Origin: a virus
IMG/VR virus record: IMGVR_UViG_3300045988_181996
DNA length: 64,000 bases
Strand: one strand, 5' to 3'
Shown here: positions 11,548 to 27,250 of the stretch, one piece after another
Position numbering within the stretch: the first letter of the stretch is position 1
Layout of the letters: every line of letters begins with the position of its first letter
Program-made: the position numbers and the translations under genes
The notes under the pieces: generated by a model
Seen by the model: only the letters and a program-made list of their open reading frames with translations
Told to the model about the DNA's origin: nothing
The model's database searches: none

Positions 11548-11814
11548 TTAAACCTTCAAATTAATTGATTCTAAAAATTCATAATCTTCTTTACTTAATT
11601 TAATTACTTCACCATTATCATTAACTAATGTCGCATTTTCATAAAAAGAATCATATTCTAATTTAAAAATTTGAGGTTTATATTTACTTATATTTTCATT
11701 TACATATTTATATTCTTTTGGAAGTTTATCAATTACAACTGCTACATAAAACATACTCAAATGTGTATATTTTATGATCCTATCATTAAATTTTTGAAAT
11801 TCTTTCTGCTTCAA
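11548..11814 (-). CDS. hypothetical 88-aa protein upstream of flotillin (possible short NfeD-like partner)
   Basis: Position immediately 5' of the SPFH gene. Weak similarity only. Confidence 0.35.
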   Translation of the reverse strand: MKQKEFQKFNDRIIKYTHLSMFYVAVVIDKLPKEYKYVNENISKYKPQIFKLEYDSFYENATLVNDNGEVIKLSKEDYEFLESINLKV

Positions 11815-11923
11815 CCCGTCTGATTTTGTCGTAAAAATGAATAATCATCATTACTGACTACTTTCATTTGATGTGACGATCCACAGACTTAACTTTCCGT
11901 ATAACCCACGGTAGTGACAATAT

Positions 11924-13102
11924 TTATACTGTAGTCAAAACAGTGTAGTTTTGACATTGTTCTAAGTTTAGAGATGCGTTTATATCTCGGTCGTGAACAA
12001 CGCTACATTTTGGACATGTCCAAGTACGTTCTTTTAATTTTAACTCTGTGTTTTTATACCCACAACAAGAACATAACTTGCTAGAAGGGTAGAAACGTGG
12101 AGCTAAACGTAGTTCAATCCCTAGTTTTTCACATTGGTTAGTTAAGAACAATCTTGACATATACCATTGTGCATTGGAAATTGTTTTAGATAAATGTTTA
12201 TTTTTCATTAGACTTTTTATATTCAAGTCTTCAATAGTTATAAAACTTGGTTTTTGTTTCATAATTGATTGTAGAGCTTTTTGATTATAATCAGTTCTAA
12301 TTCTTGTTATTCTTTCATAAAGTTTATTAACAAGTCTTTGATTTTTATTTAAATTTTTACATTCTCTCAAAGGGCGATTCCAATTAAAACTTTTTAATTG
12401 TCCTTTTTTCTTTCCTGTCTTGTAATAAACTTTATTAATCATGTTGTGTTCATATTTACGTGACAATGCACGTTGTTTTTGTTTTAACTTTTTCTCAAGT
12501 TTTATAACTCGTTTTGATTTGTTAATAGACGGTATCGTTTCATTTTTTGTAATGAATTGGTTTTTTATTCCAAAATCAATACCTATACCATGTGTAGAGG
12601 TAACGGTTTGTTTGATATTCACTTCATCAGTTAAACAAGAAACAAAGTAACGTCCATTTTTCATAGAAACAGTGACAGATTTAACATTATTCGGTATATA
12701 ACCAAATTCTTTTAATCGAACCCATTTTAGTTTAGGTAAAAAAATACGATGTCTTTCAACTTTTATTGTACCAATTAAATAGAAACTATTATTTTTTGAT
12801 TTCTTTTTAAAATTTGGTTTTCCTTTTTTACCATTTAAATAATCCCACATTGCTTTATGACCGTTCATTATTGCTTGTTTTATAGCTTTACTAGGTGACT
12901 TAATTAACCAATCAGGTCTATTTGGATCGTTATTTATCATCTTTGAATAATCATATCCTGAGATAATAGGTTGATTATTTTCTAAACGTTTAAAATTATA
13001 ACTGATAAATTGATTATAAATGTATCTAGTATTACCAAACGTTTGATGTATTAAATTAATTTGTTCTTTATTGGGTTTGATTTCTGTCTTGTAAGCTTTC
13101 AT
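11924..13102 (-). CDS. tnpB: second, divergent IS200/IS605-family TnpB, 392 aa
   Basis: 'RFYPSSKLCSCCGYKNTELKLKERTWTCPKCSVVHDRDINASLNL' zinc finger. 'ITIEDLNIKSLMKNKHLSK' RuvC-II-like. No tnpA. Confidence 0.85.
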   Translation of the reverse strand: MKAYKTEIKPNKEQINLIHQTFGNTRYIYNQFISYNFKRLENNQPIISGYDYSKMINNDPNRPDWLIKSPSKAIKQAIMNGHKAMWDYLNGKKGKPNFKKKSKNNSFYLIGTIKVERHRIFLPKLKWVRLKEFGYIPNNVKSVTVSMKNGRYFVSCLTDEVNIKQTVTSTHGIGIDFGIKNQFITKNETIPSINKSKRVIKLEKKLKQKQRALSRKYEHNMINKVYYKTGKKKGQLKSFNWNRPLRECKNLNKNQRLVNKLYERITRIRTDYNQKALQSIMKQKPSFITIEDLNIKSLMKNKHLSKTISNAQWYMSRLFLTNQCEKLGIELRLAPRFYPSSKLCSCCGYKNTELKLKERTWTCPKCSVVHDRDINASLNLEQCQNYTVLTTV

Positions 13103-15836: not shown

Positions 15837-16610
15837 CTAAAAGAAATCATTTAAATTAGCATTTGCTTTTATTTTTTTTAACTGTTTTTCAATTTTCTTA
15901 TCTTTTTGCTTTATCTCATTAATTTTATTTTTCAAATTACTTGAATGAATCTCTACATCACTTAAATTAACGGATTTAGCAGTTTTCTTTGTCGATGTTT
16001 GTTTTTCTTGTTTTTCTTCTACATCTTTTTTTTGTGGTTTTTTCTTAACAGTTTTTTCAGTATTCGTTGTTGAAACCACTTCGTTTGATTTTTTAGACTG
16101 CTTTTTAGCTGTTGTCTTCTTTGGTTTTTCTTCTTTTTTTACCGTTTCTTTTTTCTCAGTTGTTTCGCTAATTTTACCAAATTCATTATCGATTTTAATT
16201 TTTATTTTTATTAAATGTGCCAAGGCTATATTTGCATTCTCACTTTGATTTAATATTAACTTAAAAATTTCAGAATGTGTTAATTTTTTACGTACAGTAG
16301 AATCATTAATATAATTAATAATTTCATCAGGTATTCCTTTAAAACGATACGAAAATGGTTTATCTATTTCTATATAATTAAAATTATCAGAATAACTATT
16401 ATAAAGTGCAATTGTTTGATTAATTGTTAAACCATATGTTGTACCTGTATTATATAGTAATTTTAACACATCACAATAAAATGAACTCAATCCATAACGA
16501 CAACTTTTCTTTAGTTGATCAATTTGACCAAATTTCGTATTTATATTATAATATAATGTTTTGTTCATTATAAAGATCCTTTCTTTTTTACTATGTTCAT
16601 ATTTTAACAT
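15837..16610 (-). CDS. putative plasmid replication initiator (basic C-terminus) adjacent to iterons, 257 aa (true start may be Met15, 16568)
   Basis: Gene start abuts the 13-bp iteron array. Lys-rich DNA-binding tail. No family motif recognised, so the call is by context only. Confidence 0.4.
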   Translation of the reverse strand: MLKYEHSKKERIFIMNKTLYYNINTKFGQIDQLKKSCRYGLSSFYCDVLKLLYNTGTTYGLTINQTIALYNSYSDNFNYIEIDKPFSYRFKGIPDEIINYINDSTVRKKLTHSEIFKLILNQSENANIALAHLIKIKIKIDNEFGKISETTEKKETVKKEEKPKKTTAKKQSKKSNEVVSTTNTEKTVKKKPQKKDVEEKQEKQTSTKKTAKSVNLSDVEIHSSNLKNKINEIKQKDKKIEKQLKKIKANANLNDFF

Positions 16611-16644
16611 CTTCTTTCAAAGAAGTCAAGTAATATATTATAAT

Positions 16645-16962
16645 TTGTTACCCTTAGTTGTTCTCCCTAGTTGTTACTCTTAGTTGTTCTCCTTAGTTGT
16701 TACTCTTAGTTGTTCTCCTTAGTTGTTACCCTTAGTTGTTACCCTTAGTTGTTACCCTTAGTTGTTACCCTTAGTTGTTCTCCTTAGTTGTTCTACTTAG
16801 TTGTTCTCACTAGTTGTTCTCCCTAGTTGTTCTACTTAGTTGTTCTACTTAGTTGTTCTCACTAATTGTTCTCCCTAGTTGTTCTCACTAGTTGTTCTAC
16901 TTAGTTGTTCTCACTAGTTGTTCTCCCTAGTTGTTCTCACTAGTTGTTACCCTTAGTTGTTA
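16645..16962. repeat. iteron array 1: ~24 tandem copies of a 13-bp unit YTAGTTGTTMYYC
   Basis: Read directly from the sequence. No unique spacers between units, so not CRISPR. Confidence 0.9.
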
Positions 16963-17071
16963 CAAAAAATACAAAAAAGATACAAAAATACAACACAAAA
17001 TCATTGACATTTATACATCACAATGATACACTAGATATATCGATAAAAAAAAGAAAGGAATAGACTAGAGC

Positions 17072-18542: not shown

Positions 18543-19155
18543 AAAAATATACTGTACTATTTTTTACTCAAATCGCAAGGAATGTTGCTTCCTTATTTCA
18601 ATTTCTAATTAAGTAGAAATTATAAAACCCTATTAAAAACTTGAAGCGGCAAGATCATCAAAAAAAAAATAAAAAGATAAAAACATTTAAAAAAAATAAT
18701 GACTTAATATATCAAAAAATCTCCTGTTATTAAAATTTACCGATGCAATTTTATTAATTCGATCTTTTAAGTGAACCCCTACCTTTAAAATTCTCACAAC
18801 TAAATTTACCTTTAAAATAACTAATTAAAACATCATCAAAATAACATTTTAGCAAACTCCCTCACAAAAAAAATACAACTAAATAAAAAAATTCCATTCA
18901 AATAAAATTTTTAAGACGCATTTAAACACCCTTCTCGCTTTGATGAAATACTTTCTGGTATAATTGGTCCAAAAAATATTTTACGACGATTCTAGGGGTA
19001 TAGAAATAGCTCCTAGAGGGTGATTCATTATTTTTGTATATAGTATATTTCGGATAATGACATTTTAACAAAATTATTTAATAAACGTCTACATTTGTCG
19101 TTATCTATTTAACCTTCTTATCCTAATTGGTAATAATATATTTATCGCTGCAAAA

Positions 19156-19210
19156 CGTAATTCTACGAATTACTTAAAAATAAGTTAGGCATAGCCTAAA
19201 ACCCTTTAAC
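19156..19210 (+). promoter_or_regulatory. hairpin motif copy 1: CGTAATTCTACGAATTAC + TTAGGCATAGCCTAA + ACCCTTTAAC upstream of the 19252 gene
   Basis: Two palindromes plus a conserved ACCCTTTAA box. Recurs five times before plus-strand genes. Confidence 0.6.
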
Positions 19211-19251
19211 TCGAAAATATTAATTAAATAAATGTTTGGAGGGTTACCGCT

Positions 19252-21068: not shown

Positions 21069-21096
21069 ACTTAACTCTTAATCTTTCGCTTATAAT

Positions 21097-21151
21097 CGTA
21101 ATTCTACGAATTACTCAAAAACCAATTAGGCTTCGCCTAATACCCCTTAAC
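21097..21151 (+). promoter_or_regulatory. hairpin motif copy 2: CGTAATTCTACGAATTAC + TTAGGCTTCGCCTAA + TACCCCTTAAC
   Basis: Near-identical to copy 1. Confidence 0.6.
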
Positions 21152-21187
21152 TTTTGAAATTTATTTTATTAATTGGAGGTTTTATAC

Positions 21188-22949: not shown

Positions 22950-23020
22950 TTAACTTGCACCCGCTAATACATACGTATTAGCTGGAAAACCAGTTAAGTT
23001 GCACCTAATACCCTTTAATC
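22950..23020 (+). promoter_or_regulatory. hairpin motif copy 3: TTAACTTGCACC ... GCTAATACATACGTATTAGC ... GTTAAGTTGCACC + TAATACCCTTTAATC
   Basis: 20-bp perfect palindrome flanked by 12-bp direct repeats, then the ACCCTTTAA box. Confidence 0.55.
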
Positions 23021-23057
23021 TATGAAAAAAAATTAAAACAAATTAAGGAGTCATATC

Positions 23058-23201: not shown

Positions 23202-23243
23202 AAAAAAAATATTAATTGATCTAAGTATTACATACTTATCATT

Positions 23244-23272
23244 TAGTTAGGTCACCCTAACACCCTTTAATC
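23244..23272 (+). promoter_or_regulatory. hairpin motif copy 4: TTAGTTAGGTCACCCTAA + CACCCTTTAATC
   Basis: Motif family, upstream of ssb1. Confidence 0.5.
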
Positions 23273-23310
23273 TAAAAAAAATAATAATCAAATAAAGAGA
23301 GGTTCTATTT

Positions 23311-24506: not shown

Positions 24507-24619
24507 CAAATTTTTCCTACCCTGAAAAAATCCCTTGTGTTTAATCCTTGACCTGAATACGTCTTTAAACTGTTCAATTTTTATTACGTGACAATTATAC
24601 TAATTGTCATAAAAACCAA

Positions 24620-24645
24620 TTAGGCTTTGCCTAACACCCTTTTAA
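24620..24645 (+). promoter_or_regulatory. hairpin motif copy 5: TTAGGCTTTGCCTAA + CACCCTTTTA, preceded by TTGACCTGAATACGTC box at 24549
   Basis: Motif family. TTGACCTGARTAYGTC is also present at 25611. Confidence 0.55.
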
Positions 24646-24685
24646 TTATGAAAAAATAAAAAAAATAAAGTGAGGTACAAAACTT

Positions 24686-25687: not shown

Positions 25688-25999
25688 ATGACAATTTTAT
25701 TAACAGGACACATCTCAAGAAAAGAAACAGCAGTTGCTAAAACAGGGAAAGTTGCTTTCAACCAAGTTGCTTGTACTAACATCTATACTAAAAAAGACGG
25801 TACTCAAGTTGAAGATACTCAATTCATTAACTTCGCTATCCCTTCTAAATTCGAAAAACTTTGGAAACACCTTGATAAAGGTCAATTAGTTACTGTTGTT
25901 GCTCACATCGAACAATGGAAATCTACTAATGAAAAAGGTGAAAATCGCTATACTCAAATGGTTGTAGCTGACTCTATCGGGTTAGGCTCTGCTAAATAA
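25688..25999 (+). CDS. ssb: SSB-like OB-fold protein (paralog 3), 103 aa, no C-terminal tail
   Basis: 'TQFINFAIPSKFEKLWKHLDKGQLVTVVAHIEQ' vs SSB '[33 protein letters not shown]'. Confidence 0.7.
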   Translation: MTILLTGHISRKETAVAKTGKVAFNQVACTNIYTKKDGTQVEDTQFINFAIPSKFEKLWKHLDKGQLVTVVAHIEQWKSTNEKGENRYTQMVVADSIGLGSAK

Positions 26000-26005
26000 T
26001 TTATT

Positions 26006-26036
26006 AAAGACCACTATAAGTGGTCTTTTTTATTTT
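26006..26036 (+). terminator. rho-independent terminator AGACCACtataaGTGGTCT + T6
   Basis: 7-bp stem plus T-run directly after ssb3. Confidence 0.75.
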
Positions 26037-26233
26037 ACGGAAATCCTACGTATTTCCTACGGTGGTGACATGGCTTCGCATTAATGTCACGCTTAAAAAA
26101 AACAGTTACCCTTATCTTATTTATTTAATGGTGTAACTGTTTTTTTTATTTGTACAATTAACTCCGTTAATTGTTTTATTAAATTGCAATAGCCTACGCC
26201 TATTGCTATTATTTAAAATAATTATTCAAATTT

Positions 26234-26472
26234 GTTACCCTTAGTTGTTCTCCCTAGTTGTTACCACCAGTTGTTACCCTTAGTTGTTACCACTAGTTGT
26301 TACCACTAGTTGTTCTCCCTAGTTGTTCCCCCTAATTGTCACTCTTAGTTGTTCTCCCTAGTTGTTCCCCCTAATTGTTACTACTAGTTGTTACTACTAG
26401 TTGTTACCCTTAGTTGTTACCACTAGTTGTTACTACTAGTTGTTACCCTTAGTTGTTACCACTAGTTGTTAC
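26234..26472. repeat. iteron array 2: ~18 tandem copies of the same 13-bp YTAGTTGTTMYYC unit as array 1
   Basis: Seen in sequence. Same orientation as array 1, 9.3 kb away. Confidence 0.9.
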
Positions 26473-26564
26473 TTCACTTTGCTTTACCTATTAAAAAACT
26501 ATATTTGATTAAAAATATTTCGATCTCGATACCAAAATATACTTTATTATTAACATTAACTATA

Positions 26565-26690
26565 TCTCTTATATAAATCAATTATATTAATCTCTTATAT
26601 AAACACATTATATAAACACCTTATATAAAAACCTTATATAATCACTATATAAACACCTTATATTAACACCTTATATTAATCAAATTCATA
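26565..26690. repeat. second iteron family: ~9 copies of ~12-bp (C)ACCTTATATAAA(C) preceded by an AT-rich stretch
   Basis: Seen in sequence. Confidence 0.8.
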
Positions 26691-26824
26691 AACACCTTTA
26701 AAAAAAACGCAATTCCTACGTAATTGCTTATATTGGTTCGTGGCTTCGCATTAACTCACTTCCTGATTCATTACTTGAATCAGTCTTCGGTCAAACTCGT
26801 CTCAAACTCCTTTGACATAAGGAA

Positions 26825-27047
26825 CTCCCCCCCCTTTTTTGTTAATAATTATATGAAATTTATTTTGTTGAAAAGTATTAGTTGAGTGTTAGTTGAAATT
26901 ATTTGAAAAAATATTATATCGGGAAATTATATAGATGATTTCTAAAAATAATTTATGGGCAAATTTTATTTGAGGGAATTATTATATGAATATATTATGT
27001 CCATTATTTTTTATTCCCTCAATTTATTTTTTTAATAGGGGGGGAGT
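26825..27047. repeat. element bounded by inverted ACTC8 / G7AGT homopolymer repeats with an inner TTGAGGGAAT/ATTCCCTCAA inverted repeat
   Basis: C8 at 26827-26834 and G7 at 27038-27044, in ~27% GC DNA. Confidence 0.6.
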
Positions 27048-27250
27048 AAAAGAGCATAAGAGAAAATATAATTCAAATTAACTAAAATCCTTATTATAAA
27101 ACAAATATATTATATATCAAAAATCAACTATTTTTTTTAATATTTAAAATGAATTTTAATATAAATATAAAAAAATAACCTACACATTAAATATAATATG
27201 TAAGTTATTTTATAAATTTAATATTTATAATTTTTATGGTTTATAAATTT

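What the first reader, a model, noticed from the sequence alone, without database searches (positions are those of the whole stretch)
26825..27047. C8/G7-bounded inverted-repeat element downstream of the topoisomerase gene
Homopolymeric C8 and G7 tracts are striking in ~27% GC DNA. Here they form the ends of an ~220-bp segment with ACTC8 and G7AGT terminal inverted repeats and an inner TTGAGGGAAT/ATTCCCTCAA inverted repeat. This could be an invertible switch, a MITE-like insertion, a recombinase res site, or slipped-strand phase-variable tracts.
Basis: seen in the sequence. Interest (0 to 1): 0.5.

Follow-up and report, generated by a model that had tools for sequence, protein, structure and literature searches.

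The report
Conserved long-range stem in plasmid leader
The C8 and G7 runs are real and are this plasmid's version of a base-paired stem, kept through compensating mutations in related uncultivated Clostridia conjugative plasmids, which closes off a fast-evolving insert just after a conserved promoter and an invariant 11-base motif; it is not an invertible switch or a mobile insertion.

Summary
ACT-C8 (26824-26834) and G7-AGT (27038-27047) are the only C/G runs of 7 or more in 64 kb.

On the topoisomerase-sense (window minus) strand they are the two arms of a long-range helix. Six deep related lineages keep this helix with entirely different arm sequences. Two internal G.U pairs fit only this strand.

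The helix starts 0-4 nt after an invariant motif, CTTATGCTCTT. That motif lies about 32 nt (31-33) after the -10 box of a conserved sigma-A-type promoter.

The arms delimit a hypervariable AT-rich insert: 59-69% identity, against 96-98% in the flanks. Conserved hairpins follow, then 13-nt iteron arrays.

I found no inversion, no second copy, no recombinase and no conserved ORF. Tract lengths do differ (7 or 8) between near-identical relatives.

Best reading (about 0.45): the closing stem of a promoter-driven, roughly 390-nt non-coding leader RNA in the plasmid's maintenance region. Its function is inferred, not shown.

Main rival (about 0.25): the same fold in single-stranded DNA of that strand.

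The element has no Rfam family.

The parts
27093..27120 (-). Sigma-A/sigma-70-type promoter, TTGATA-16 nt-TATAAT, reading leftwards into the element
   Evidence: The scan gives 11 of 12 matches. A -35/-10 pair sits at the same place in 10 or more divergent lineages, with the -10 hexamer 31-33 nt (mostly 32) before the invariant motif.
27050..27060 (-). Invariant motif CTTATGCTCTT, at about +26 to +36 of the predicted transcript
   Evidence: Unique in the window. Identical in 29 distinct sequences from loci whose topoisomerases are only 37-99% identical.
27038..27047 (-).
   Evidence: The 5' arms contain no G in any of the 6 deep lineages.
26835..27037 (-). Hypervariable AT-rich interior looped out by P1. 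It holds the inner repeat TTGAGGGAAT/ATTCCCTCAA and short direct repeats (TCAACTAAYAC).
   Evidence: 59-69% identity between relatives whose flanks are 96-98% identical. Its length runs from 71 to 334 nt across lineages.
26824..26834 (-).
26763..26783 (-). Hairpin 1, CTGATTCA-AGTAA-TGAATCAG, with a GUAA-type loop
   Evidence: Four of its pairs change on both sides between the W-type and L003-type lineages.
26735..26759 (-). Invariant box GTGAGTTAATGCGAAGCCACGAACC, containing GCGAAGC
   Evidence: Identical in the W-type and L003-type lineages. A GC-to-GU change in 3 sequences fits this strand only.
26700..26727 (-). Hairpin 2, GCAATTA-CGTAG-GAATTGC, followed by T8; terminator-like on the minus strand
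   Evidence: Four pairs change on both sides while the CGTAG loop stays conserved. The T-run is present only in the W subclade.
26557..26700 (.). Iteron array B, about 10 copies of a 13-nt unit (CTTATATAAACAC)
   Evidence: The array is replaced by different repeats in 97-98%-identical relatives.
26232..26475 (.). Iteron array A, about 19 copies of a 13-nt unit (TAGTTGTTACCMC). A second A array lies at 16532-17039.
26037..26084 (-). Second copy of the box module: a hairpin GTGACAT/ATGTCAC with 12-nt loop TAATGCGAAGCC, followed by the hairpin GGAAAT-ACGTAGG-ATTTCC
   Evidence: The stems covary in L028-L031 (GTGGTAC/GTACCAC).
27158..27225 (.). Hairpin at the end of the topoisomerase gene, probably a bidirectional terminator, which separates that gene from the promoter
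   Evidence: Inverted repeat I1; conserved in alignment A1.

Best explanation
The C and G runs are the two strands of a closing helix (P1) in a non-coding transcript of the topoisomerase-sense (window minus) strand.

Proposed mechanism:
1. A conserved sigma-A-type promoter (27120-27093) fires leftwards, starting at about 27086.
2. Nucleotides +26 to +36 of the transcript are the invariant CUUAUGCUCUU.
3. The G-free C-run directly after the motif pairs with the G-run about 200 nt further on.
4. This stem loops out a fast-evolving AT-rich insert. It brings the invariant 5' motif next to a conserved 3' module: CCUUAUG, a GUAA-loop hairpin, the GCGAAGC box hairpin, and a CGUAG-loop hairpin.
5. In this subclade the last hairpin is followed by U8, which would give a discrete RNA of about 390 nt ending just before the 13-nt iteron arrays.

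Shown:
- The promoter is conserved and its spacing to the motif is nearly fixed.
- The motif is invariant.
- P1 and the two hairpins are kept by compensatory changes.
- The folded strand is the topoisomerase-sense strand.
- The hypervariable DNA is delimited by the arms.

Inferred:
- The RNA is actually made and terminates at the U8.
- Its job is plasmid-specific control of the adjacent iteron or maintenance region. In this view the conserved core is the working part, and the variable insert plus the iterons set specificity. The analogy is to inverted-repeat-bounded leader RNAs of Firmicutes conjugative plasmids and to leaders controlled by a countertranscript.
For: Promoter:
- 11 of 12 matches in the window.
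- A -35 (TTGATA, TTGCAC or TTTACA), a 16-17 nt spacer and a -10 recur in the W, L003, L013, L006, L014, L061/93, L057, L069 and L035 lineages. The distance from the -10 to the motif is 31-33 nt, mostly 32.
- In distant lineages the same promoter and motif head a 540-850-nt leader that runs into same-strand genes.

Helix P1:
- Six deep lineages have six different arm pairs: ACTC7/G8AGT, ACACCCCTCCC/GGGAGGGGTGT, TTAAACCCAATAACC/GGTTATTGGGTTTAG, TCTTTCACCCAC/GTGGGTGAAAGG, TTTCACTCCTCAC/GTGAGGAGTGAAA and TCTTTATCCCATACCT/AGGTATGGGGTAAAGG. All start 0-4 nt after the motif.
- Each lineage's own arms pair fully (paired fraction 1.0); arms swapped between lineages pair at 0.66.
- The longest perfect helix is 9-14 bp, against a mean of about 7 bp after shuffling. 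It is reached or exceeded in 0-19 of 300 shuffles per lineage. Distant lineages show no helix.

Strand:
- Internal U.G pairs in L031 and L014 break the helix if it is read on the other strand.
- U.G pairs also occur in hairpin 2 of the L003 type, and a GC-to-GU change occurs in the box hairpin.

3' module: RNAalifold predicts 23 pairs, 8 of which change on both sides.

Cassette: flanks are 96-98% identical, the interior 59-69%, and the iteron region 54-74%.

No known RNA family matches the region.

Precedent: the pLS20 conAn2 RNA has a 238-bp centre flanked by 20-bp inverted repeats and carries a GC-rich box near its 5' end (PMC8191782). pLS20 also has a long-range 'zipper' attenuator in its leader (PMC13401043).
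Against: - I have no expression data, so the transcript is predicted only.
- The whole-element fold is only weakly better than shuffles (z = -1.7 on the minus strand, -2.1 on the plus strand).
- In this clade the promoter faces a convergent ssb gene cluster with no downstream gene, so there is no obvious target.
- The U-run after hairpin 2 is missing in the L003, L006 and L013 lineages.
- Hairpins with the same CGTAG/GTA loops occur on the same DNA strand inside the oppositely transcribed ssb cluster. The box contains GCGAAGC, a motif known as an extraordinarily stable DNA mini-hairpin (PMC13037366). Both points fit a single-stranded-DNA role at least as well.
- The covariation in the 3' module rests on essentially two lineages.
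- In pLS20, mutating the conAn2 inverted repeats had no effect.
Confidence: 0.45

Rival explanations
1. The same fold forms in single-stranded DNA of the topoisomerase-sense strand, either the transferred strand during conjugation or the lagging-strand template during replication. P1 and the GNA-loop hairpins would then form an ssi/sso-like site for priming or protein loading.
For: - Hairpins with C-GNA-G loops and stems of 7 bp or more number 5 on the window minus strand and 0 on the plus strand. A looser scan (stems of 5 bp or more) gave 10 versus 3 in the window, 0 on the other strand in the W-clade relatives listed, and 57 versus 34 distinct hairpins over all loci. Several lie 60-95 nt upstream of the oppositely oriented ssb-cluster genes.
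- Their stems vary while the loop orientation stays fixed.
- One hairpin B copy has a G.T pair on the minus strand, which would be an A.C mismatch in the mRNA.
- GCGAAGC and GCGTAGC match the stable DNA mini-hairpin family GCGNAGC (PMC13037366).
- The minus strand is G-rich across all 64 kb, as expected for a lagging-strand template.
- The ssb, antitoxin-like and RNase H-like genes all use this strand as template, as leading-region genes do (PMC11541004).
Against: - This reading does not explain the conserved promoter at a nearly fixed distance from the motif.
- The interior is not self-complementary and contains no duplexed -35/-10, so it is not Frpo-like.
- In distant lineages the unit heads same-strand genes.
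- The GNA loop is not kept in all the ssb-cluster hairpins.
Confidence: 0.25
2. The element is the origin of transfer. On the window plus strand, the arm G7AGT is followed by the invariant AAAGAGCATAAG. This is the inverted-repeat-then-nick layout used by relaxases, here the MobL enzyme encoded at 33191-34048.
For: - The 11-mer is as invariant as nick regions usually are.
- The element sits at the junction between the conjugation genes and the ssb cluster.
Against: - The wobble pairs put the folded strand on the minus strand, not the plus strand.
- A spacer of 71-334 nt between the arms is unlike known oriT repeats.
- Distant lineages keep the motif without any inverted repeat.
- A better candidate lies directly upstream of the 264-aa gene and the MobL gene at about 35480-35532. 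It is a hairpin with a covarying stem and an invariant TGCATGCACTTA, flanked by conserved TTTGTCCA and GGACACTTT repeats and by TGGTACA. These features recall the pLS20 oriT.
Confidence: 0.08
3. The function is at the DNA level. The repeats mark the ends of an exchangeable cassette, acquired by insertion (MITE-like) or swapped by recombination, and pairing of the arms is not itself functional.
For: - The arms coincide exactly with the borders of the hypervariable DNA between 96-98%-identical flanks.
- Interior length ranges from 71 to 334 nt.
- The interiors carry lineage-specific tandem repeats.
Against: - The element is single-copy.
- There is no target-site duplication.
- No transposase or recombinase is associated with it.
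- Arm sequences differ in every lineage yet stay complementary, with G.U pairs on one strand. That points to selection for pairing, not for a protein site.
Confidence: 0.08
4. The G7 tract is a slipped-strand switch inside a small hydrophobic ORF on the plus strand (26986-27081, MNILCPLFFIPSIYFFNRGGVKEHKRKYNSN). This would be a type I toxin-like peptide, with its Shine-Dalgarno sequence GAGGGA masked by the inner repeat and the minus-strand RNA acting as antisense.
For: - The ORF has a Shine-Dalgarno sequence in the window.
- The ORF is present in L027 (31 aa) and in L001 (24 aa), where G8 changes the reading frame of the tail.
- The peptide has a hydrophobic N-terminal half and a basic tail.
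- A strong convergent promoter overlaps the ORF.
Against: - The ORF is absent in L010 (99% identical topoisomerase) and in all deeper lineages that still keep the helix.
- The Shine-Dalgarno sequence is present only in the window.
- Nucleotide conservation around the arm does not respect the reading frame.
Confidence: 0.05
5. The element is an invertible DNA switch flipped by a site-specific recombinase acting on the terminal repeats.
For: The terminal inverted repeats bound a segment that contains promoter-like sites on both strands.
Against: - Nine relatives all have the interior in one orientation: forward alignment scores 20-184, reverse-complement scores 4-28.
- No recombinase was found in 64 kb.
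- The arms covary with wobble pairs.
Confidence: 0.02

Closest known systems
conAn2 RNA element of the pLS20 conjugation operon (processive antitermination; PMC8191782)
   Same: Both lie on Firmicutes conjugative plasmids with a MobL-type relaxase. Both are non-coding and promoter-driven. In both, a centre of about 240 bp is flanked by terminal inverted repeats, a GC-rich box lies near the 5' end, and internal stem-loops are present. Sequence conservation between plasmids is poor in both.
   Different: conAn2 follows the conAn1 gene at the start of the operon. Here the element follows the last gene of the operon, has its own promoter and faces a convergent gene cluster. No conAn1-like partner was identified. 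In pLS20, mutating the repeats had no effect, whereas here the arms are kept by compensatory change. There is no sequence similarity.
Zipper-type transcriptional attenuator in the pLS20 leader (PMC13401043)
   Same: Both involve long-range complementarity in a long leader just after a conjugative-plasmid promoter, with the structure conserved and the sequence not.
   Different: The attenuator works by competing with an intrinsic terminator just upstream of a gene. Here I found no alternative pairing between terminator and antiterminator, and no downstream gene.
Frpo/ssi single-stranded-DNA promoters and sso origins of conjugative and rolling-circle plasmids (PMC11541004)
   Same: Both are strand-specific folded elements in non-coding DNA next to ssb genes. 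Both have conserved loops on variable stems and depend on orientation.
   Different: Frpo is one long imperfect hairpin that carries a duplexed -35/-10; this interior is not self-complementary. I have not compared the sequence against known ssoA elements (RSB, CS-6), so nothing can be said about similarity to them.
Relaxase oriT sites (inverted repeat next to a nick), specifically oriT of pLS20 (PMC5313138)
   Same: Both have an invariant short sequence directly beside a variable, covarying inverted repeat, with a C/G-rich stretch at the site.
   Different: The spacer between the arms is 71-334 nt. The folded strand is opposite to the strand that would give the repeat-then-nick order. A stronger oriT-like site lies next to the relaxase gene.
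Leaders controlled by a countertranscript, and primer RNAs (ColE1 RNA II/RNA I, pT181, pIP501)
   Same: Both are structured leaders whose variable part differs between otherwise near-identical plasmids, as incompatibility determinants do. A convergent promoter lies inside the interior in the window, L001 and L027.
   Different: The antisense promoter is missing in L010 and L003. No rep gene or origin lies downstream. GC skew shows no origin here.
Invertible promoter switches, MITEs and homopolymer phase-variation tracts
   Same: Terminal inverted repeats are present, the homopolymer runs are 7 or more long, and tract length differs by one between relatives.
   Different: The orientation is fixed, the element is single-copy, there is no recombinase or target duplication, and the tracts lie outside any conserved ORF or promoter spacer.

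Membership tests
Invertible DNA switch | Both orientations of the segment occur among copies or reads | tested here: not met
   The interiors of 9 relatives align only in the forward orientation. Read-level data were not available.
Invertible DNA switch | A site-specific recombinase is encoded nearby | tested here: not met
   Pfam scans of the window ORFs of 100 aa or more found no serine or tyrosine recombinase; they found two TnpB-like genes.
MITE / small insertion element | Multiple copies in the genome | tested here: not met
   C7 occurs only at this element in the window. blastn of the element against the window and 107 loci hits only the orthologous site. The complete host genome was not available.
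MITE / small insertion element | Target-site duplication directly flanking the terminal repeats | tested here: not met
   The bases abutting the arms are CTCTTTT on one side and TCCTTAT on the other, which are not identical.
Phase-variable homopolymer tract | Tract length is polymorphic among close relatives | tested here: met
   C/G lengths on the topoisomerase-sense strand are: window 7/8, L027 7/8, L001 and L002 8/7, L010 7/7 (in L011 only the C7 tract is visible before the contig ends). These come from independent samples.
Phase-variable homopolymer tract | The tract lies in a conserved ORF or between the -35 and -10 of a promoter | tested here: not met
   The only ORF across the G tract is present in 3 close relatives and absent in L010 and in the deeper lineages. 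The tracts lie at about +40 and +250 of the conserved promoter.
Known RNA families (Rfam 15) | A covariance-model match at or near the gathering score | tested here: not met
   Nothing in 25900-27300 reaches significance even at E up to 10. The only family hit in the window is RAGATH-18 at 11803-11887.
conAn2-type antitermination RNA | Located just downstream of a conAn1 gene at the start of the conjugation operon | tested here: not met
   The element follows the last gene (the topoisomerase) and has its own promoter. The neighbouring small proteins have no Pfam hit. ConAn1 homology was not tested directly.
conAn2-type antitermination RNA | Read-through of downstream terminators depends on the element | not testable with these tools
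   This needs reporter assays.
oriT of MobL (MOB-L) plasmids | The relaxase nicks at the site, and the site confers mobilisation | not testable with these tools
   This needs nicking and mobilisation assays.
oriT of MobL (MOB-L) plasmids | An inverted repeat lies 5' of the conserved nick region on the folded (transferred) strand | tested here: not met
   On the strand that the wobble pairs identify as folded, the invariant motif lies 5' of the helix. The expected order is found only on the other strand.
Frpo-type single-stranded-DNA promoter | A long imperfect hairpin that puts a -35 and a -10 in duplex form | tested here: not met
   The interior folds into two short local hairpins plus about 60 unpaired nt. 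The fold z-score is only -1.7.
Bidirectional theta replication origin | A switch in the sign of GC skew at the site | tested here: not met
   GC skew is negative in every 2-kb bin of the window, including 24-30 kb. A unidirectional origin is not excluded.

The most novel reading that the evidence does not exclude
The promoter, the invariant CUUAUGCUCUU, the covarying closing helix and the conserved GNA/GNRA-loop hairpins together define a previously undescribed class of plasmid non-coding RNA. Alternatively, they define an element in which transcription exposes single-stranded DNA. In either case the repeat-bounded hypervariable insert, together with the adjacent iterons, would act as the plasmid-specific (incompatibility or partition) determinant of a large family of uncultivated Clostridia conjugative megaplasmids.
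Probability: 0.2. Interest if true: 0.65.

Novelty: new variant of a known kind. Interest (0 to 1): 0.42.

Why it matters
If the RNA reading holds, this is a handle on how a widespread but uncultivated family of gut Clostridia conjugative plasmids (115-220 kb contigs, MobL relaxase) controls its maintenance region. The element has three parts: an invariant promoter-proximal motif, a helix kept by compensatory change, and a cassette that differs between otherwise 97-99%-identical plasmids. That pattern is what determinants letting related plasmids coexist tend to look like.

The element also supplies a clean sequence marker, CTTATGCTCTT at a nearly fixed distance from a promoter, for finding the region in metagenomes.

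For the scan itself, the lesson is that the striking C8/G7 tracts are not a switch. They are one lineage's spelling of a conserved stem.

Tried and rejected
- Near and distant DNA searches of the region against phage and plasmid collections found nothing.
- The topoisomerase is under 30% identical to anything in PLSDB.
- Two scans of GTDB genomes gave only one distant relative, an uncultured Clostridia MAG whose contig ends at the gene.
- Rfam gave nothing in the region.
- Type I toxin idea (31-aa ORF with a masked Shine-Dalgarno sequence): rejected as the main explanation because the ORF and its Shine-Dalgarno sequence are not conserved.
- Small ORFs downstream of the G arm on the minus strand (12 aa in the window): not conserved.
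- Leader peptide starting at the ATG inside the motif: no Shine-Dalgarno sequence in any lineage.
- A cross-lineage duplex-energy control was uninformative, because C-rich and G-rich arms cross-pair (own mean -24.0, cross mean -20.7). I used exact-register and shuffle tests instead.
- The MAFFT alignment built for the count of structure pairs came out of register, so pair statistics for P1 come from my own script.
- Antisense promoter inside the interior: present in the window, L001 and L027, weak in L008, absent in L003 and L010. It is therefore not claimed as conserved.
- A co-varying neighbouring protein as iteron binder: the ssb-cluster proteins are 86-99% identical between plasmids with different iterons.
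- Homologues of the genes that follow the motif in distant lineages: none in the window, and no Pfam hits.
- Bidirectional oriV: no skew switch.

Full report
**What is there.** The window reads as part of a large conjugative element of a low-GC Firmicute. On the minus strand it encodes:
- a MobL-family relaxase (33191-34048);
- a ClpB-like double AAA protein;
- a Topo III-like topoisomerase (27251-29695);
- a VirD4/TraG-type coupling protein;
- AgI/II-type adhesins;
- a DUF5906 primase-helicase-like protein;
- a SecA2-like ATPase.

A plus-strand cluster at 17-26 kb encodes two SSBs, an RnlB-antitoxin-like protein and an RNase H-like protein.

Nothing similar exists in the phage or plasmid collections. 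Relatives come only from metagenome assemblies, and the one named genome is an uncultured Clostridia MAG.

**The observation.** The finding lies in a 1.25-kb gene-free gap where the topoisomerase gene and the last ssb gene converge. They are the only C/G runs of 7 or more in 64 kb, against 0.16 expected.

**Relatives.** I fetched the DNA downstream of topoisomerase homologues that are 99, 98, 81, 52, 51, 50 and 47% identical. Read on the topoisomerase-sense strand (the window minus strand), all of them show the same order of parts:
1. a terminator hairpin at the end of the gene;
2. a promoter;
3. the invariant 11-mer CTTATGCTCTT;
4. a G-free, C-rich arm directly after it;
5. a variable stretch;
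6. the exact complement of that arm.

The arms differ in every deep lineage:

| Lineage | 5' arm / 3' arm |
|---|---|
| window | ACTC7 / G8AGT |
| L003 type | ACACCCCTCCC / GGGAGGGGTGT |
| L006 | TTAAACCCAATAACC / GGTTATTGGGTTTAG |
| L008 type | TCTTTCACCCAC / GTGGGTGAAAGG |
| L013 | TTTCACTCCTCAC / GTGAGGAGTGAAA |
| L014 | TCTTTATCCCATACCT / AGGTATGGGGTAAAGG |

The C and G homopolymers are therefore only this lineage's spelling of a helix that is kept by fully compensatory change. Three tests back this:
- Each lineage's own arms pair at a fraction of 1.0; arms swapped between lineages pair at 0.66.
- The longest perfect helix (9-14 bp) is reached in 0-19 of 300 shuffles per lineage.
- More distant lineages keep the motif but lack the helix, and score at or below the shuffle mean.

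**Which strand folds.** Two internal substitutions, in L031 and in L014, leave a T.G pair on the topoisomerase-sense strand. On the other strand they would be A.C mismatches that cut the helix. The downstream hairpins show the same bias: a U.G pair in hairpin 2 of the L003 type, and a GC-to-GU change in the box hairpin. The folded molecule therefore has the sequence of the window minus strand.

**Promoter and motif.** The scan finds TTGATA-16-TATAAT (11 of 12) at 27120-27093, pointing into the element. I aligned 29 distinct sequences on the motif. A -35 (TTGATA, TTGCAC or TTTACA), a 16-17 nt spacer and a -10 (often with an upstream TG) recur in ten or more lineages. The -10 lies 31-33 nt, mostly exactly 32 nt, before the motif. 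This includes lineages whose topoisomerases are only about 40% identical.

In those distant lineages the unit heads a 540-850-nt leader. The leader is first C-rich and G-poor, then made of short tandem repeats, and it runs into same-strand genes. This is the strongest argument that the element is transcribed and that the motif sits at about +26 to +36 of the RNA.

**What the arms enclose, and what follows.** Between the window and its 98-99% relatives, identity by segment is:

| Segment | Identity |
|---|---|
| topoisomerase 3' end | 96-98% |
| promoter and leader | 96-98% |
| 3' module after the G arm | 96-98% |
| second box module | 96-98% |
| ssb gene | 96-98% |
| interior between the arms | 59-69% |
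| iteron region | 54-74% |

Interior length ranges from 71 to 334 nt. The interiors carry lineage-specific short direct repeats. After the 3' arm come:
- a hairpin with a GUAA-type loop;
- an invariant 25-mer containing GCGAAGC;
- a hairpin with a CGTAG loop.

The two hairpins each show four pairs changed on both sides between the W-type and L003-type lineages. In the window subclade the last hairpin is followed by T8, which would end an RNA of about 390 nt just before two arrays of 13-nt iterons. A second copy of the box module lies beyond the arrays. It is a hairpin with a 12-nt loop TAATGCGAAGCC and covarying stems, followed by another CGTAG hairpin.

- Inversion: the interiors of nine relatives align only in the forward orientation, and the window has no recombinase.
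- MITE: the element is single-copy in the window and in 107 loci, and there is no target duplication.
- Phase variation: tract lengths do differ (7/8, 8/7, 7/7), and some variants recur in independent samples. However, the tracts are not in a promoter spacer. The only ORF across the G tract is a 31-aa hydrophobic peptide with a Shine-Dalgarno sequence in the window. It is present in three close relatives and absent from L010 and every deeper lineage that keeps the helix. A one-base change leaves at least seven C:G pairs, so it is probably tolerated noise in the stem.

**Best explanation.** I think the helix is the closing stem of a promoter-driven non-coding leader RNA. It loops out a fast-evolving insert and brings the invariant 5' motif next to the conserved 3' hairpin module.

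The nearest documented relatives in kind are the pLS20 conAn2 RNA and the pLS20 'zipper' leader attenuator. conAn2 has a 238-bp centre between 20-bp inverted repeats, a GC-rich box and two stem-loops. The attenuator is described. This element differs from both in three ways: it follows the last gene of the operon, it has its own promoter, and it faces a convergent cluster.

What the RNA does is inferred only. The interior and the neighbouring iterons are exactly the parts that differ between near-identical plasmids. I therefore favour a plasmid-specific maintenance or incompatibility control role.

**Main rival.** The same fold may act in single-stranded DNA. With stems of 7 bp or more, hairpins with C-GNA-G loops number 5 on the window minus strand and 0 on the plus strand. 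A looser scan gave 10 versus 3 in the window and no opposite-strand hairpins in the W-clade relatives listed. Some of these hairpins sit 60-95 nt upstream of the oppositely oriented ssb-cluster genes. GCGAAGC and GCGTAGC belong to the very stable DNA mini-hairpin family. That strand is G-rich over the whole window and is the template of the ssb cluster, as in plasmid leading regions. This reading does not explain the fixed promoter spacing, and the interior is not Frpo-like.

**Other rivals.** An oriT reading is weakened by the strand evidence and by a better candidate next to the relaxase operon. That candidate is a hairpin at about 35480-35532 with a covarying stem and an invariant TGCATGCACTTA. 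It sits among conserved TTTGTCCA, GGACACTTT and TGGTACA repeats that recall the pLS20 oriT. A bidirectional replication origin is unlikely because GC skew does not change sign here.

**Verdict.** It is an unannotated structured element with no Rfam family, of a kind already known from Firmicutes conjugative plasmids. It has an unusual hypervariable cassette and an invariant promoter-proximal motif. Interest is moderate. Expression data or a nicking or priming assay would settle whether it acts as RNA or as single-stranded DNA.

Noticed in passing
window 16532-17039, 26232-26475 and 26557-26700: There are three arrays of 13-nt tandem repeats. The 'A' unit (TAGTTGTTACCMC) occurs in two arrays in direct orientation that flank the whole plus-strand ssb cluster (17-26 kb). 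The 'B' unit (CTTATATAAACAC) lies next to the element. Relatives with 97-99%-identical flanks carry different repeat units, and many metagenome contigs end inside these arrays.
   Followed up: partly
window 26037-26084 and 26707-26759 (minus strand): A duplicated module made of two hairpins. The first has the conserved 12-nt loop TAATGCGAAGCC (which contains the GCGAAGC mini-hairpin motif). The second has a CGTAG loop. The stems covary between lineages.
   Followed up: partly
window about 19140-19234, 21081-21175, 22985-23030, 23230-23285 and 24590-24660: A unit of about 95 nt is repeated upstream of five plus-strand genes. Hairpin A has a fixed TAC (plus strand) / GTA (minus strand) loop on variable stems. 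Hairpin B is TTAGGC-NNN-GCCTAA, followed by ACCCTTTAA. On the minus strand, hairpin B is followed by a T-run, so it looks like a terminator for antisense transcription.
   Followed up: partly
window 34990-35540 (minus strand): A likely origin of transfer lies directly upstream of the 264-aa gene and the MobL relaxase gene. It is a hairpin (AATACCC...GGGTATT) around an invariant TGCATGCACTTA, and its stem covaries in a relative whose 264-aa protein is 76% identical. It is accompanied by conserved TTTGTCCA and GGACACTTT repeats and two copies of TGGTACA.
   Followed up: partly
window 11803-11887 and 11924-13102; also 38-1276: A RAGATH-18 RNA (69 bits) lies just downstream of a TnpB-like gene (OrfB_IS605 with a Cas12f-like TNB domain). 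A second TnpB-like gene lies at the window start.
   Followed up: no
window 26986-27081 (plus strand): A 31-aa ORF, MNILCPLFFIPSIYFFNRGGVKEHKRKYNSN, has a Shine-Dalgarno sequence GAGGGA that sits in one arm of the inner repeat. It looks like a type I toxin but is present only in three close relatives. In L001 the longer G run changes its C-terminus.
   Followed up: yes
whole window: GC skew of the plus strand is negative in every 2-kb bin (-0.09 to -0.40), including the plus-strand gene cluster. The minus strand is therefore G-rich throughout, and there is no skew switch in 64 kb.
   Followed up: no
L010 7700-7930: In a relative with a 99%-identical topoisomerase, the interior of the helix holds a tandem array of a 13-nt unit (ATAATTTCCACAA) that the assembler could not close (a run of N).
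   Followed up: no
loci L061, L069, L093, L057, L086, L026: In plasmids with topoisomerases only 37-44% identical, the same promoter and CTTATGCTCTT are followed by a C-rich, G-poor stretch and tandem repeats, then by same-strand genes of 216-282 aa with no Pfam match. There is no long-range helix in these lineages.
   Followed up: partly
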